DNA of 6,679 nt, from positions 1 to 6,679 of the IMG/VR virus record IMGVR_UViG_3300029006_000021; one strand, given 5' to 3'. The stretch's first letter is position 1, and the number at the start of each line of letters is the position of its first letter. Source of the DNA: a virus (taxonomy: Duplodnaviria; Heunggongvirae; Uroviricota; Caudoviricetes). The notes under the pieces were generated by a model. The model saw nothing but the letters and a program-made list of their open reading frames with translations, was not told the origin of the DNA and ran no database searches. The position numbers and the translations under genes were made by a program. Below, piece after piece: positions 1 to 6,524 of this stretch.

Positions 1-31
1 GGGCGATTAACATCGCCTTTTGCTGCTTCAT
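1..31 (-). CDS. hokD: Hok/Gef-family small membrane toxin, N-terminal 10 codons only; gene continues beyond the left edge of the window
   Basis: Minus-strand ATG at 29-31 preceded by SD-like AAGGAGA about 9 nt upstream; visible translation MKQQKAMLIA matches the N-terminus of HokD/RelF as I remember it (HokC/Gef would read MKQHKAMIVA). Only 10 residues are in the window, so the call is tentative. Confidence 0.45.
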   Translation of the reverse strand, partial: MKQQKAMLIA

Positions 32-152
32 AGCCTGCTTCTCCTTGCCTTTCGGCACGTAAGAGGCTAACCTACATGTGCAAAGCATGAAATTGGCCTC
101 AGATTAATGTTAAGCGTCTTGCCGGACGCGTAATGTTAACTGGGGCTTTTCT

Positions 153-188
153 CTGTCTGCCTTACGGTGGCATGCCCGAGGCAGACAG
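153..188. other. 10-bp inverted repeat (CTGTCTGCCT / AGGCAGACAG) with 16-nt spacer containing the palindrome GGCATGCC, in the leader upstream of the hok-like gene
   Basis: Read directly. Not followed by a U-tract on either strand, so not a typical terminator; could be part of hok-type mRNA folding or a protein-binding site. Confidence 0.35.
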
Positions 189-276
189 CCTCAAGCACCC
201 GCAGCAATTCTACTTAACTCTCGCTTTACCGCAAACCGTTTTTACCCGATATGGGAATCCCCATATCGCAATGAAA

Positions 277-381
277 TCAGTTTCCCATCCGATCCATCAA
301 AAACACAACCAGGCAGTAAACGCCCACAACAGAAATAACGGCCAGCGCGCCTTCCATTGCCAGTGAAAGATCATCCGACAT
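277..381 (-). CDS. Tiny hydrophobic peptide, 34 aa, predicted single transmembrane helix (MSDDLSLAMEGALAVISVVGVYCLVVFLMDRMGN); function unknown
   Basis: Not in the ORF track (too short). Minus-strand ATG at 379-381 preceded by near-consensus SD AAGGAGGG 4-5 nt upstream; TGA stop at 277-279; uncharged 19-residue core flanked by charged ends. Same strand and operon as the upstream genes. Confidence 0.5.
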   Translation of the reverse strand: MSDDLSLAMEGALAVISVVGVYCLVVFLMDRMGN

Positions 382-416: not shown

Positions 417-500
417 TTACTCCCACCGACAAATAACATATACTAAAAAAGCGATAGCCATAGCAACGCCTGTAATTGCAAAGGCTTCAGGCCAGTTCAT
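417..500 (-). CDS. Tiny hydrophobic peptide, 27 aa, predicted single transmembrane helix (MNWPEAFAITGVAMAIAFLVYVICRWE); function unknown
   Basis: Not in the ORF track. Minus-strand ATG at 498-500 overlaps the TGA stop of the upstream 101-aa ORF (ATGA overlap, translational coupling); SD-like GGAGGA upstream; TAA stop at 417-419. Confidence 0.5.
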   Translation of the reverse strand: MNWPEAFAITGVAMAIAFLVYVICRWE

Positions 501-2213: not shown

Positions 2214-2948
2214 TCACCGCTGCTGCTCTCTGGTGGCGGTAATATCCCGGAGAATATCCCTGTGTTTGTTCAGTTCCCGTAGCGCAGCACAGACTCGCTC
2301 CCACTTCTGAACATCACTTTTCGCCCGGCGCAGCTCGCGGTTAGCCACATGCAGCGATGGTAGAATCAGGTCATCTGCTTTCGCTTCAGTGACCGATGGC
2401 TGTAACTTCACAATGTCTTCCTCGATTTCTGTTTTCATTTCTTCCTGTGTCGTTGTTTCCTGGACTGGTAACGCAACTCCTGCTGGCTGAGGAAAGGCTT
2501 TACCATCCGTTTCCGCTGCGGATGCAGCTTCCGGCTCTGCTGGTAAATTATCGCCCGGCATGCAGTAACGAAATTTACCGCCCTGATTCACGCGAATCAG
2601 ACGCCCTTTGCTGATTGCCATTGCCAGCGATGAATTCGCCCGGCGGGAGGTAATTCCGAACATCAGTGCCAGTTCATCCGCCGTTTGTGGGCCATGTTGT
2701 TCAATCGCCTCTGTCAGCATTTGCGCTGTCACTTTCGGTACCGGTGACACCGGTTCACTTTCACCAGCCTGAGTCAGCCACCACATCGACCCCTTGTTAT
2801 CCGCTTCACCGCGGCGCTTCAGTTTCCACAGTTCGTTGACCGCCTCTTCACGGCTGATTCCAAGGCGCGATGCCACTACCTGTGAAGAGGCTTTTTTCAG
2901 TGCTTTCAGTGCGTCAAATACGGTTTCCATTAAAACGTCCTCCGACAA
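2214..2948 (-). CDS. Prophage protein with two tandem winged-helix-like domains and an acidic/Pro-rich linker, 244 aa (resembles the DUF1627-type proteins found after replication genes in enterobacterial prophages)
   Basis: ORF track; ATG at 2946-2948 with SD GGAGGA about 7 nt upstream, 3 nt after the stop of the DnaC-like gene. Domain assignment is from reading the sequence, not from a search. Confidence 0.8.
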
Positions 2949-2951
2949 AAA

Positions 2952-3698
2952 TTACTTCACAACCCTCTGATTGCTGACATTTGGACGCCAGCTATCCCAG
3001 TTAAACGTCACCCATCGACCACCGTTCATGGTCATGCGGTCCATAATCCTCTCACCGAGAAGCGTACTCATTGCGGCATGATTCAGGTTTGTTAACATCC
3101 CGACACTGCACAGTGATGCTGTCCGGCGATCAATTATCTGGTGCAATACCACCTGCTCGTTTTTCGTCTCACGCTGAACGCCTATTTCATCCAGGACCAG
3201 CAAATCAACCCCGCAAAGCTCCTGTAAAAATTTTTCCCCGGACTGGCCGTTGTCGTAGCTGTCATGCAACACACTCATGACGTCAGACACGGTGACGATA
3301 ATCACGCTGCTCCCCTTCGCCATCAGCCGGTTGCCCATCGCCGCTGCAAGGTGATTTTTCCCGGTGCCGGTTTTACCGCTGAACACAAAATTCGTGCACC
3401 CGGTCATCAGTTCGTCAGCGATGGATTTTGCCTGGCTCAGCGCGTGTTTTTGCCCGTCGTTCTGCACCTGATAATTCGCAAACGAGCATTTGCTGTGCAG
3501 AGGCTGGATGCCCGAACGATTCAGGATTTTTTCCACCCGCAACTGGCGATTCTGGCGGTTAATCTCCTCGCTGCGTTTTCGTCCTTCAGCAAGCTGCCAT
3601 TCCCGCCACTCCTCCACCGTCCGGTACGGTGGAACCGCCCCCTGTGGTGCAAGTCTGCGAATACGTTCAAGAACCCCGGCTGCCGCAATGTTTTTCAT
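2952..3698 (-). CDS. ydaV: DnaC-family replicative helicase loader (AAA+ ATPase), 248 aa
   Basis: Walker A FSGKTGTGKNHLAAA and Walker B DLLVLDEIGVQ, with C-terminal ...GERIMDRM...WVTFNWDSWR closely resembling E. coli DnaC; SD GGGGGTGA upstream of ATG 3696-3698. Symbol assigned by synteny and size with the Rac prophage, not verified. Confidence 0.9.
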   Translation of the reverse strand: MKNIAAAGVLERIRRLAPQGAVPPYRTVEEWREWQLAEGRKRSEEINRQNRQLRVEKILNRSGIQPLHSKCSFANYQVQNDGQKHALSQAKSIADELMTGCTNFVFSGKTGTGKNHLAAAMGNRLMAKGSSVIIVTVSDVMSVLHDSYDNGQSGEKFLQELCGVDLLVLDEIGVQRETKNEQVVLHQIIDRRTASLCSVGMLTNLNHAAMSTLLGERIMDRMTMNGGRWVTFNWDSWRPNVSNQRVVK

Positions 3699-5433: not shown

Positions 5434-5487
5434 TACCTTTGGGTTGTTTACCTTACGGTAATCACATCTATTATTTACCTATGGACA
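5410..5487. promoter_or_regulatory. Operator cluster: four TACC-N4-GGTA-type palindromes (5410-5421 TACCTATAGGTA, perfect; 5434-5445 TACCTTTGGGTT; 5450-5461 TACCTTACGGTA; 5476-5487 TACCTATGGACA); candidate repressor binding sites
   Basis: Read directly; they sit between divergent repressor and Cro-like genes and overlap the predicted promoter hexamers, an arrangement like lambda OR1-OR3. Confidence 0.55.
5447..5474 (+). promoter_or_regulatory. PRM-like promoter for the repressor gene: -35 TTTACC (5447-5452), 16-bp spacer, -10 TATTAT (5469-5474); predicted start at or near the ATG at 5481 (leaderless mRNA)
   Basis: Hexamers read directly; there is no SD upstream of ATG 5481. Lambda cI is transcribed as a leaderless mRNA from PRM, which is the precedent. 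Confidence 0.4.
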
Positions 5488-5900
5488 AATATGAATTTAG
5501 ACGACAGCAGCTCATCAAAATTCGTGATGAGAAATGCGATGGTAAAGCGGTTAACGTAGCCAGAAAGATCGGTCGCGAGCCTTCTTATGTATCAAGAATG
5601 TTGTACCCAGAGGGGAAAAAGGGAAAAAAACGGATCGCTGATGATATGGTGGAGATTATCGAAGAGTCCTTTGGGTTACCCCGAGGATGGATGGATGGTA
5701 TCGTTTCATCATCAACGAACACAGCCTCCAATTATGAAACAAGGGTTCTAACGCCACGACAACGTATTTTTTTAGATCTCCTAGACGAGTTGCCAGAAAG
5801 TGAAGCGGATAACTTATTAAAAACTCTTGAAGAGAAAAAACAGTATTACAATATGATCTACGAAGAAATCCGTAAAAAGAAAGCACAAAACGCATCATAA
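5481..5900 (+). CDS. racR: RacR-like prophage repressor (cI analogue): N-terminal HTH, no S24 peptidase domain; 139 aa from ATG 5481 (alternative TTG at 5439 gives 153 aa)
   Basis: ORF track 5439..5900; HTH-like GKAVNVARKIGREPSYVSRML; divergent from the Cro-like gene with an operator-rich intergenic region. Start uncertain. Symbol by synteny with Rac, not verified. Confidence 0.8.
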   Translation: MDKYEFRRQQLIKIRDEKCDGKAVNVARKIGREPSYVSRMLYPEGKKGKKRIADDMVEIIEESFGLPRGWMDGIVSSSTNTASNYETRVLTPRQRIFLDLLDELPESEADNLLKTLEEKKQYYNMIYEEIRKKKAQNAS

Positions 5901-5943: not shown

Positions 5944-5980
5944 TACCCACGGGTATTTACTTTTTAGATACCCGTGGGTA
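5944..5980. promoter_or_regulatory. Perfect 13-bp inverted repeat (TACCCACGGGTAT / ATACCCGTGGGTA) with 11-nt loop; each arm is itself a TACC-N4-GGTA operator-like motif. Candidate OL-like operator pair and/or bidirectional terminator
   Basis: Read directly; 44 nt after the racR stop. On the minus strand the stem is followed by CTTTTTT, on the plus strand by TTCTTCCTTTC. The shared motif with the racR/ydaS intergenic operators favours a repressor site. Confidence 0.5.
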
Positions 5981-6166
5981 TTCTTCCTTTCATACCAACC
6001 CACTCCGCCCCACAGAATGCAGGGCAATACCTCGAGTTACCCGGCAGTGGTCAGGGGTTAAGTAGCCAGCCCGAGGCGTATGAACATGACGGCGGGAACA
6101 CTTTGTATAACAGCGCAGCAGGTTTTTAGTTCCGCTACCCCGGCGTTAAGGGGAAATGAGGTCAAC

Positions 6167-6319
6167 ATGGATACTATCGAGCTTGGCAACAACGAATCTC
6201 TGGTGTGCGGCGTCTTCCCCAATCAGGACGGCACGTTTACCGCGATGACGTATACCAAAAGTAAAACGTTTAAAACCGAAGCTGGCGCGCATCGCTGGTT
6301 AGCCAGAAACGCCAACTGA
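6167..6319 (+). CDS. Small protein, 50 aa (MDTIELGNNESLVCGVFPNQDGTFTAMTYTKSKTFKTEAGAHRWLARNAN), downstream of the repressor gene; possibly equivalent to the small ydaG/ydaF-type genes of Rac
   Basis: Track ORF 6080..6319 trimmed to ATG 6167 with SD GAGG 5 nt upstream. Equivalence to Rac genes is by position only. Confidence 0.5.
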   Translation: MDTIELGNNESLVCGVFPNQDGTFTAMTYTKSKTFKTEAGAHRWLARNAN

Positions 6320-6485
6320 TTAGCGCCAGTAAAAACAGGTTTCCACAGGTTAATGTACCCTGAAAAGTCATGGCATAACACGAAAGCGCACGGAGAGGTT
6401 TCTTTGCATATAAGTCTTGTCGTTAAATTTCTTCGACCGTGCGCTTCCGGTTGTGTAGCCAGTGCAACCTCGTGGTGTACCCATT

Positions 6486-6524
6486 GGCGGCATCGGTTTG
6501 TTGCTGACTGATGTCCGCCCTTTT
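6486..6524 (+). terminator. Candidate rho-independent terminator: GGCGGCATC / GATGTCCGCC stem (one bulge) followed by CTTTTTAAA
   Basis: Read directly; the loop is large (about 14 nt), so this is weak. Confidence 0.3.

What the first reader, a model, noticed from the sequence alone, without database searches (positions are those of the whole stretch)
1..276. Hok/Gef-family toxin gene start in a non-canonical context, with a structured leader
The minus-strand ORF starting at 31 begins MKQQKAMLIA, matching the HokD/RelF N-terminus, with a good SD. Unlike the K-12 relB-relE-hokD arrangement it is preceded by tiny membrane-peptide genes and a 245-nt untranslated stretch containing a 10-bp inverted repeat (153-188). 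An in-frame upstream ATG at 86-88 would give a 19-codon N-terminal extension. Whether a mok-like leader ORF and sok-like antisense RNA exist here, or hok is simply read through from the early operon, cannot be settled from the window.
Basis: partly seen in the sequence, partly recalled or inferred. Interest (0 to 1): 0.6.

Follow-up and report, generated by a model that had tools for sequence, protein, structure and literature searches.

The report
Ordinary prophage hok/mok/sok toxin-antitoxin module
The left end of the window holds the front part of a well-known small toxin gene (hok), with its leader reading frame (mok) and antisense RNA antidote (sok), sitting in a lambda-like prophage; it is the standard, intact form of a module present in most E. 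coli genomes, so it is ordinary.

Summary
The "non-canonical context" reading is backwards. Window 1-234 is the 5' part of a canonical hok/mok/sok type I toxin-antitoxin cassette. It contains its own promoter, the mRNA 5' end at 200, the tac, ucb and dcb elements, the mok SD and ATG, the hok SD and ATG, and a 71-nt Sok antisense gene on the + strand (80-150) with its own promoter and terminator. Rfam RF01794 scores it at 117 bits (threshold 59). The leader is 187/200 identical to the annotated and experimentally studied hokW-mokW-sokW of phage 933W/Sp5. It occurs in 4,713 of 5,426 complete E. coli genomes. Relatives with the same start encode a 51-aa Hok (Pfam HOK_GEF), and where the 3' end was recovered they carry the 3' fbi element that pairs with the 5' end. 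K-12's relBE-hokD is the derived, truncated form: homology begins only at window 45, and Rfam finds no leader there. The rest of hok lies outside the window. Already known; low interest.

The parts
229..234 (-). hok promoter, -35-like hexamer TTGCGG (16-nt spacer to the -10)
   Evidence: Read from the sequence. Weak match (3/6), which is why the consensus scan missed it. Conservation across 80 loci starts to rise here.
207..212 (-). hok promoter, -10 hexamer TAGAAT, 6 nt before the mRNA 5' end
   Evidence: Aligns with TATAAT of K-12 hokC and of an IncFII plasmid hok at the same distance from the conserved 5' end. hokW mRNA is present in uninduced lysogens (PMC8621323).
189..200 (-). 5' end of hok mRNA: tac element GGGUGCUUGAGG
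   Evidence: Position 1 of the RF01794 match. Identical in 38 of 42 related loci, 169-170 nt before the hok ATG. Pairs with the 3' fbi in 19/19 full-length relatives.
169..182 (-). Local partner of tac (metastable 5' hairpin of the nascent transcript)
   Evidence: In the fold of the leader alone, nt 1-13 pair with nt 19-32. This matches the metastable structure described for R1 hok (PMC9841398).
153..188 (-).
   Evidence: The pair at alignment columns 15/63 occurs as A-U, G-C and U-A (with two G-U) across relatives.
142..150 (-). ucb (anti-SD) AAAAGCCCC. Pairs with the mok SD in the full-length mRNA and with tac in the processed mRNA
   Evidence: Full-length folds: mok SD paired to this region in 19/19 relatives and in the window-leader chimera. 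With 40 nt removed from the 3' end, it pairs with tac instead. Rfam consensus helix 1.
97..100 (-). mok Shine-Dalgarno GAGG
   Evidence: 8 nt before ATG 88-86. R1 uses the same GAGG motif at a nearly identical distance from the mRNA 5' end (PMC9841398).
1..88 (-). mok reading frame (start ATG 88-86, MLCTCRLASYVPKGKEKQA, then in frame into hok); runs off the window
   Evidence: Maps exactly onto the annotated mokW start of 933W. The in-frame 70-aa form is found in 59/80 unbiased loci. K-12 MokC has the same in-frame design.
63..68 (-). dcb AGCCUC, partner of the mok SD in the processed (open) mRNA
   Evidence: Rfam consensus helix GAGGC/GCCUC. Alignment columns 120-124/154-158 are paired in 10-11 of 12 sequences.
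41..46 (-). hok Shine-Dalgarno AAGGAG
   Evidence: Invariant in the 12-sequence alignment.
1..31 (-). hok toxin ORF, first 10 codons (MKQQKAMLIA); the remaining 41 codons, stop and 3' fbi lie beyond the window edge
   Evidence: Relatives encode a 51-aa protein matching Pfam PF01848 at 83 bits and PHROG 251 'MokW-like host killing'.
45..73 (+). sok promoter: -35 TTGCCT (45-50), 17-nt spacer, -10 TAACCT (68-73)
   Evidence: Window 43-72 is identical to oligo YO-597, and window 49-67 is identical to the 3' part of mutagenic primer YO-421, which lies next to the -10 that was mutated to silence sokW (PMC8621323).
80..150 (+). Sok antisense RNA (71 nt): single-stranded 5' tail 80-94, long hairpin, UUUU tail 147-150
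   Evidence: Both ends map from the annotated 933W sokW, with 64/71 identity. The same 5' end is obtained by alignment to annotated K-12 sokC. Fold -31.6 kcal/mol, z = -5.5. It covers the mok SD and ATG.

Best explanation
Window 1-234 is the 5' two-thirds of an intact hok/mok/sok type I toxin-antitoxin cassette of the prophage hokD/hokW type. It is carried as an autonomous module in the nin region of a lambdoid prophage.

Proposed mechanism, inferred from R1 hok/sok and from hokW-sokW:
1. A constitutive promoter (-10 at 212-207) makes an mRNA of about 390 nt that starts at G200.
2. While the mRNA is being made, its 5' tac element is held in a local hairpin.
3. In the finished mRNA, tac pairs with the 3' fbi element and ucb covers the mok SD, so nothing is translated.
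4. Slow 3' trimming removes fbi. tac then pairs with ucb, the mok SD is freed, and ribosomes translating mok run through the hok SD and start region, allowing Hok to be made.
5. The short-lived 71-nt Sok RNA, made from the opposite strand (80-150), pairs across the mok SD and ATG, blocks translation, and marks the duplex for RNase III.
6. When Sok supply stops, through loss of the element or prophage induction, the 51-aa membrane toxin is produced.

Shown here: all sequence elements at the expected spacing, the predicted alternative folds, covariation, and near-identity to characterised loci. Inferred: transcription, 3' processing, toxicity, and the intactness of the part outside the window.
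For: - RF01794 scores 117.2 bits (gathering score 59) over 200..26, full model length. This is comparable with K-12 hokC (118.3 bits) and 933W hokW (113.5 bits).
- The leader is 187/200 identical to 933W. Annotated sokW, mokW and hokW map to window 80-150(+), 88 and 31.
- Window 43-72 is identical to the hokW probe used in PMC8621323, and window 49-67 is identical to the 3' part of mutagenic primer YO-421, next to the sokW -10 that was mutated there.
- All relatives whose ORF is complete encode a 51-aa Hok; all 42 have a 19-codon mok extension, 38 of 42 have tac 169-170 nt before the hok ATG, and 32 have fbi at about nt 387. Pfam HOK_GEF scores 83 bits.
- Folding: tac/fbi end pairing and mok-SD/ucb pairing appear in 19/19 unique full-length relatives, and also in the window leader joined to a relative's 3' part. 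Removing 40 nt from the 3' end switches the fold to tac/ucb and frees most of the SD. The leader alone forms the metastable 5' hairpin, z = -3.7. The Sok fold has z = -5.5.
- Covariation: 12 pairs change on both sides, against 4.2 +/- 1.5 in shuffles and 1-5 in slid controls.
- Element spacing nearly matches R1: mok ATG at nt 113 versus 116, hok ATG at nt 170 versus 174.
- Cassette behaviour: conservation starts at about 212-240, and the neighbours on both sides vary.
- Present in 4,713 of 5,426 complete E. coli genomes.
Against: - Only 10 hok codons are in the window. The remaining 41 codons and the fbi element cannot be seen, and no exact source sequence was found (best matches 95-97%). A disruption just outside the window cannot be excluded.
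- Both promoters fall below the generic sigma-70 consensus scan. They are supported only by homology.
- No expression or toxicity data exist for this copy. Chromosomal hok loci tested earlier did not mediate post-segregational killing (bioRxiv 10.1101/2025.08.07.668861).
- Several pairs of the Rfam consensus are not standard pairs in this clade (helices 2 and 4).
Confidence: 0.9

Rival explanations
1. It is a decayed, non-functional hok/sok remnant, like the K-12 chromosomal copies. The 5' regulatory part looks intact, but the toxin gene or the 3' end beyond the window is disrupted, or the module is silent.
For: The window ends after codon 10, so the rest is unseen. Hok loci in K-12 are reported as inactive (PMC1635323). 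Tested chromosomal loci did not mediate post-segregational killing. The related locus L001 lies in a prophage with several pseudogenes.
Against: Every visible element is intact and matches functional hokW-sokW. Relatives not cut by a contig end carry a complete 51-aa ORF. In 80 loci the leader is strongly conserved while the flanks are not, which suggests selection on the module.
Confidence: 0.08
2. hok has no regulatory system of its own here. It is simply the last gene of the early rightward (nin) operon and is expressed by read-through, as the first reader considered possible.
For: It lies on the same strand as, and directly downstream of, the replication and nin genes. No strong intrinsic terminator separates them; the only candidates are a weak one at 326-310 and a palindrome without a U tract at 247-268. 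Read-through during induction probably does occur in addition.
Against: A conserved -10 sits at a fixed distance from a conserved 5' end that must be terminal to pair with fbi. The mok and sok elements are present. Homology to other phages starts abruptly just upstream of the promoter, and the upstream neighbours differ. hokW mRNA is present before induction and is not increased by it (PMC8621323).
Confidence: 0.02

Closest known systems
hokW-mokW-sokW of Stx2 phages 933W / VT2-Sakai (Sp5)
   Same: The leader is 187/200 identical. HokW is 51 aa and MokW is a 70-aa in-frame fusion. sokW is 71 nt and maps to window 80-150. The sok promoter region is identical, and the Sok hairpin has the same 18-20-nt extension relative to sokB and sokC. 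hokW-sokW has been shown experimentally to be a type I toxin-antitoxin system that aids phage release after induction (PMC8621323).
   Different: 7 of the 13 leader differences fall in the Sok 5' tail and mok codons 2-5 (MLCTC versus MLNTC), and there is a compensatory G-C versus A-U change in the 5' stem. In 933W the module sits at the far right end of the phage map, next to a YgiW/YdeI-like gene; here it is in the nin region.
hokD (relF) of E. coli K-12 Qin prophage (relB-relE-hokD)
   Same: The first 10 Hok codons and the SD are identical (45/45 nt). It occupies the same prophage position, upstream of rem, ydfU and the Q antiterminator, in a prophage with a dicB/dicF/ydfA-type region.
   Different: K-12 lacks everything upstream of window 45: promoter, tac, ucb, mok start, Sok target and sok -10 are replaced by relE. 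It gives no RF01794 hit. The window carries the intact version.
hok/mok/sok (parB) of plasmid R1 and IncF relatives
   Same: Same set and order of elements (tac, ucb, mok SD, dcb, hok SD, antisense Sok covering the mok start). The spacing is nearly the same: mok ATG at nt 113 versus 116, hok ATG at nt 170 versus 174. About 19 mok codons precede hok in both. The sok promoter has the same layout overlapping the hok SD.
   Different: HokW is only 44% identical in protein sequence to R1 Hok (PMC8621323). R1 mok is out of frame with hok (58-nt offset); here it is in frame. Sok has a longer hairpin here. The carrier is a prophage rather than a plasmid.
hokC (gef)/mokC/sokC of E. coli K-12
   Same: mok is an in-frame N-terminal extension of 19 codons (MokC is 69 aa). 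The 5' end GGGUGCUUGAGGCUGUCUG is identical. The annotated sokC 5' end aligns to window 80. RF01794 scores 118 bits.
   Different: About 70% DNA identity over the leader. sokC is shorter (59 nt). hokC is a core-chromosome locus flanked by IS186 in K-12.

Membership tests
[quoted passage not shown] | mRNA leader matches the family covariance model (Rfam RF01794, which models the hok-sense leader) | tested here: met
   117.2 bits against a gathering score of 59, full model 1-157, window 200..26. The model hits the hok strand in loci with annotated sokC, sokB and sokW.
[quoted passage not shown] | Toxin ORF of about 50 aa matching Pfam PF01848 (HOK_GEF) | tested here: inconclusive
   Only 10 codons (MKQQKAMLIA) are inside the window. 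They are identical to HokD and HokW. Relatives with this start that are not cut by a contig end encode 51 aa, and PF01848 scores 83 bits. The window's own continuation was not found.
[quoted passage not shown] | mok leader ORF with its own SD, translated across the hok start region | tested here: met
   GAGG at 100-97, ATG at 88-86, 19 codons in frame into hok. This coincides with the annotated mokW start.
[quoted passage not shown] | cis-antisense Sok RNA gene with promoter and terminator, complementary to the mok translation start | tested here: met
   Sequence-level test only. -35 at 45-50, -10 at 68-73, transcript 80-150(+), hairpin plus UUUU tail. 64/71 identical to annotated sokW. The promoter region is identical to the one mutated experimentally. 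Expression was not tested.
[quoted passage not shown] | tac at the mRNA 5' end with alternative partners: metastable hairpin, and ucb (the anti-SD for mok) | tested here: met
   Covariation in helix 1: 5 pairs with changes on both sides.
[quoted passage not shown] | fbi element at the mRNA 3' end, complementary to tac | not testable with these tools
   It lies about 190 nt beyond the window edge. It is present (CCTCAACGCACCC) in relatives and pairs with tac in 19/19 full-length folds.
[quoted passage not shown] | Hok toxicity neutralised by Sok | not testable with these tools
   Demonstrated for the close homologue hokW-sokW (PMC8621323), not for this copy.
relB-relE-hokD operon arrangement (K-12 Qin) | hokD directly downstream of relE, with no leader or sok of its own | tested here: not met
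   No relBE is present. A full leader is present where K-12 has relE sequence.

The most novel reading that the evidence does not exclude
The short stretch at 82-94 forms both Sok's single-stranded 5' tail and mok codons 2-5. It is the most variable part of an otherwise conserved module, with about 20 alleles among 80 loci whose Hok protein is identical. This stretch could act as a specificity determinant, so that the several prophage hok/sok copies in one E. coli genome (median 2, up to 10) are each controlled only by their own Sok. The window's allele would then be one specificity type, distinct from sokW. A further speculation: in the nin position, early rightward transcription after induction runs head-on into the sok promoter and could help to switch Sok off.
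Probability: 0.3. Interest if true: 0.4.

Novelty: already known. Interest (0 to 1): 0.1.

Why it matters
It matters little as a discovery. The module is annotated in phage 933W and VT2-Sakai, has been characterised experimentally as hokW-sokW, and is present in most E. coli genomes. The practical value is for annotation. The 245-nt "gap" should be annotated as a hok promoter, mok, and a sok antisense RNA gene, not as untranslated spacer. K-12's relBE-hokD should not be used as the reference arrangement, because it is the truncated form. The Rfam family named "sok" reports the hok-sense strand, so its strand should not be read as the strand of the antitoxin RNA. The allelic hot spot in the Sok tail is a modest lead for anyone studying cross-talk between co-resident type I toxin-antitoxin copies.

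Tried and rejected
I relied on homology to mapped and annotated loci instead.\n- **Exact 44-mer search in 185,579 species-representative genomes.** No hit, so the window's own left flank could not be recovered. The same 44-mer found 40 IMG/VR contigs, but none matches the whole window. The best complete-genome matches cover at most 79% of the window and are mosaic.\n- **A first ungapped identity comparison.** It was misleading because of indels and was replaced by blastn.\n- **Two scripts.** Both stopped on a locus with a variant ucb (AAGCCTC) and were rerun with a positional test.\n- **The 40 contigs selected by the 44-mer.** They are biased for the mok region, so they were not used for the variability analysis. 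A sample selected through the Hok protein was used instead.\n- **The idea that the two tiny hydrophobic peptide genes are part of the module.** Rejected: neither is present upstream in 41 of 80 loci, and they have no Pfam or PHROG family.\n- **The mir-2041 and STnc100 Rfam matches.** Both are far below their gathering scores and were dismissed.

Full report
**1. Observation**

- The ATG is at 31-29, followed by 10 codons, MKQQKAMLIA, before the window ends.
- AAGGAG lies at 46-41, 9 nt upstream of the ATG.
- An in-frame ATG lies at 88-86, 19 codons upstream (MLCTCRLASYVPKGKEKQA). The nearest upstream in-frame stop is at 106-104.
- The perfect 10-bp inverted repeat 153-162/179-188 is the core of a 21-nt imperfect repeat, 142-162/179-199.
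- Two small hydrophobic ORFs precede it: 34 aa at 381-277 and 27 aa at 500-417.

**2. What it is**

A search of the whole window against Rfam gave one strong match: RF01794 ('sok') over 200..26 on the minus strand, at 117.2 bits against a gathering score of 59, covering the full model.

That model describes the hok-sense leader, not the antisense RNA. In K-12 hokC and hokB and in 933W hokW, where sok RNAs are annotated on the opposite strand, the model hits the hok strand at 110-118 bits (annotations).

The leader is very common.
- It matches 4,713 of 5,426 complete E. coli genomes, with a median of 2 places and up to 10 per genome. The matches listed are annotated as hokD.
- It matches 79 phage records, several of which annotate it as mokW/hokW/sokW.
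- At least 576 IMG/VR contigs encode a relative of the toxin.

**3. Anatomy by homology**

Aligned with phage 933W (AF125520), which annotates all three genes, the window is 187/200 identical from the mRNA start to the window edge.
- mokW starts at window 88 and hokW at window 31.
- The 71-nt sokW maps to 80-150 on the + strand, 64/71 identical.
- The annotated 5' end of K-12 sokC aligns to the same base, 80.

The sok promoter reads -35 TTGCCT (45-50), a 17-nt spacer, and -10 TAACCT (68-73). Window 43-72 is identical to probe YO-597 of the hokW-sokW study. Window 49-67 is identical to the 3' part of mutagenic primer YO-421, which lies next to the sokW -10 that was mutated in that study to silence sokW (PMC8621323).

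The hok promoter reads -35 TTGCGG (234-229), a 16-nt spacer, and -10 TAGAAT (212-207), 6 nt before G200. The -10 aligns with TATAAT of hokC and of an IncFII plasmid hok at the same distance from the conserved 5' end.

**4. The RNA switch**

PMC9841398 summarises the family's defining elements:
- a 5' tac element that pairs with a 3' fbi element in the full-length mRNA;
- ucb acting as the anti-SD for mok;
- a metastable 5' hairpin in the nascent transcript.

The window contains tac (200-189), the local metastable partner (182-169), ucb (150-142), the mok SD (100-97) and dcb (68-63). The folds behave as expected.
- The leader alone folds with tac in the local hairpin, z = -3.7.
- The full-length mRNA of a 97%-identical relative folds with nt 1-12 paired to the 3' end and ucb paired to the mok SD, z = -7.6.
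- The same holds for all 19 unique full-length relatives, and for the window's own leader joined to a relative's downstream part.
- Deleting the last 40 nt switches the predicted fold to the tac/ucb stem and leaves most of GAGG unpaired.
- Sok (80-158) folds as a single-stranded 5' tail, a long hairpin and a U tail, z = -5.5.

On a 12-sequence alignment (this clade plus hokC, hokB and a plasmid hok), the Rfam consensus structure shows 12 pairs with changes on both sides. Shuffles give 4.2 +/- 1.5, and slid controls give 1-5.

The spacing is almost the same as in R1: mok ATG at nt 113 versus 116, and hok ATG at nt 170 versus 174.

**5. The unseen part**

The window's own continuation was not found. 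Among 42 related loci with the same hok start:
- all but the two cut by a contig end encode a 51-aa Hok;
- all have a 19-codon mok extension;
- 38 have tac 169-170 nt before the hok ATG;
- 32 have CCTCAACGCACCC ending about 387 nt from the 5' end. The others were cut by a contig end or did not match the exact pattern used.

Hok from a relative matches Pfam HOK_GEF at 83 bits and PHROG 251 'MokW-like host killing'.

**6. Context**

On the minus strand the window reads as follows:
- YdaS/YdaT-like regulators;
- an O-like HTH replication protein and a DnaC-like ATPase;
- DUF1627 and DUF4406 proteins and ORFs matching phage families of unknown function (their counterparts in relatives are annotated ead/Ea22-like and DUF551);
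- the two tiny peptide genes;
- hok/sok.

A ydfA-like ORF and a DicF-like element diverge on the + strand at the right end.

In relatives the module is followed by rem-like, ydfU (DUF968), rusA and Q genes. K-12 Qin hokD has the same position.

K-12 differs only in what lies upstream of hokD. Homology to this locus starts at window 45, and relE sequence replaces the leader. No RF01794 hit is found there. So K-12 is the truncated form and this window is the intact one.

The module behaves as a cassette.
- Across 80 loci chosen only by an identical Hok protein, per-position variability is low from about 200 down to the hok start. It rises steeply upstream of about 212-240.
- Homology to other phages begins abruptly at about 212, 223 or 243-250.
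- The tiny peptide genes are upstream in only 20 and 27 of the 80 loci, and neither is present in 41. Downstream neighbours vary as well.

**7. Function**

For hokW-sokW (PMC8621323):
- HokW is toxic.
- sokW neutralises it, partly dependent on RNase III and Hfq.
- Both RNAs are present in the uninduced lysogen.
- sokW disappears after mitomycin C, HokW then accumulates in the inner membrane, and deleting the locus halves phage release.

I infer the same for this copy. A stabilising (addiction) role or a defence role is also possible. A recent survey finds hok enriched in prophages and leaves its function there open (bioRxiv 10.1101/2025.08.07.668861).

**8. Verdict**

The Hok-family assignment is correct. 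The 'non-canonical' reading is wrong. This is an already-known, very common module, so interest is low.

The one mildly interesting by-product is a hot spot of variation at 82-91, which forms the Sok 5' tail and mok codons 2-5.
- It carries about 20 alleles among loci with an identical Hok, while mok codons 6-19 stay essentially fixed.
- 11 of the 80 loci use an out-of-frame 19-codon mok whose stop overlaps the hok ATG.

This could reflect Sok specificity alleles, but that was not tested.

Noticed in passing
window 82-94 (both strands): The Sok 5' tail / mok codons 2-5 region is the variability peak inside the conserved leader. It shows 0.87 bits per nt at 82-91, against 0.04-0.66 in the other bins from 200 to 1, and about 20 alleles among 80 viral loci with an identical Hok protein. 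The window's allele occurs in 3 of the 80. mok codons 6-19 (RLASYVPKGKEKQA) are essentially fixed. These may be Sok-target specificity alleles.
   Followed up: partly
loci L052-L131 (mok region homologous to window 31-88): 59 of 80 loci have the in-frame 70-aa Mok-Hok fusion seen in the window. 11 of 80 have an out-of-frame 19-codon mok (MRHIEISLLRTERSRRSRL) whose stop overlaps the hok ATG (ATGA). So two coupling designs coexist in one clade with the same toxin.
   Followed up: partly
window 247-268: A perfect 9-bp palindrome with a 4-nt loop (CGATATGGG gatt CCCATATCG) lies between the stop of the 34-aa peptide gene and the hok promoter, with no U tract on either strand. In an O157 relative the same site is an 11+11 palindrome with no loop. 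Its function is unknown; it could be a protein-binding site or an RNA end.
   Followed up: no
window 277-381 (-) and 417-500 (-): Two tiny hydrophobic peptide genes: MSDDLSLAMEGALAVISVVGVYCLVVFLMDRMGN (34 aa; the counterpart gene in relatives is annotated as a hypothetical protein) and MNWPEAFAITGVAMAIAFLVYVICRWE (27 aa). Neither has a Pfam or PHROG family. They lie upstream of hok in 20 and 27 of 80 loci respectively, and are not obligate partners of the module.
   Followed up: partly
window 6472-6520 (+): A diverged DicF-like small RNA with a terminator-like hairpin and T run. It scores 29 bits, below the Rfam gathering score of 48 (K-12 dicF scores 76.7). It sits in the syntenic position, downstream of a ydfA-like DUF1391 ORF (6080-6319).
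   Followed up: no
window 5944-5980: A 16-bp near-perfect hairpin follows the ORF at 5439-5900 (+) (unassigned in Pfam; the syntenic gene in a relative is annotated helix-turn-helix). It is probably a terminator: a T-rich tail follows it on the + strand, and only the + strand passed the terminator scan. It also produced spurious mir-2041 matches in Rfam.
   Followed up: no
Rfam RF01794, seen on window 26-200 and on loci L008, L009, L050: The Rfam family named 'sok antitoxin' models the hok-sense mRNA leader, from tac to the hok AUG. It therefore reports the strand opposite to the real Sok RNA, which is an annotation trap.
   Followed up: yes
L050 (933W) 2553-3291 compared with the window and L001/L007: In 933W/Sp5 the module lies at the far right end of the phage map, followed by a YgiW/YdeI-like OB-fold gene. 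The same hok + ygiW-like pair occurs in the nin region of E. coli A30 and on an IncY plasmid, so a two-gene unit appears to move between locations.
   Followed up: no
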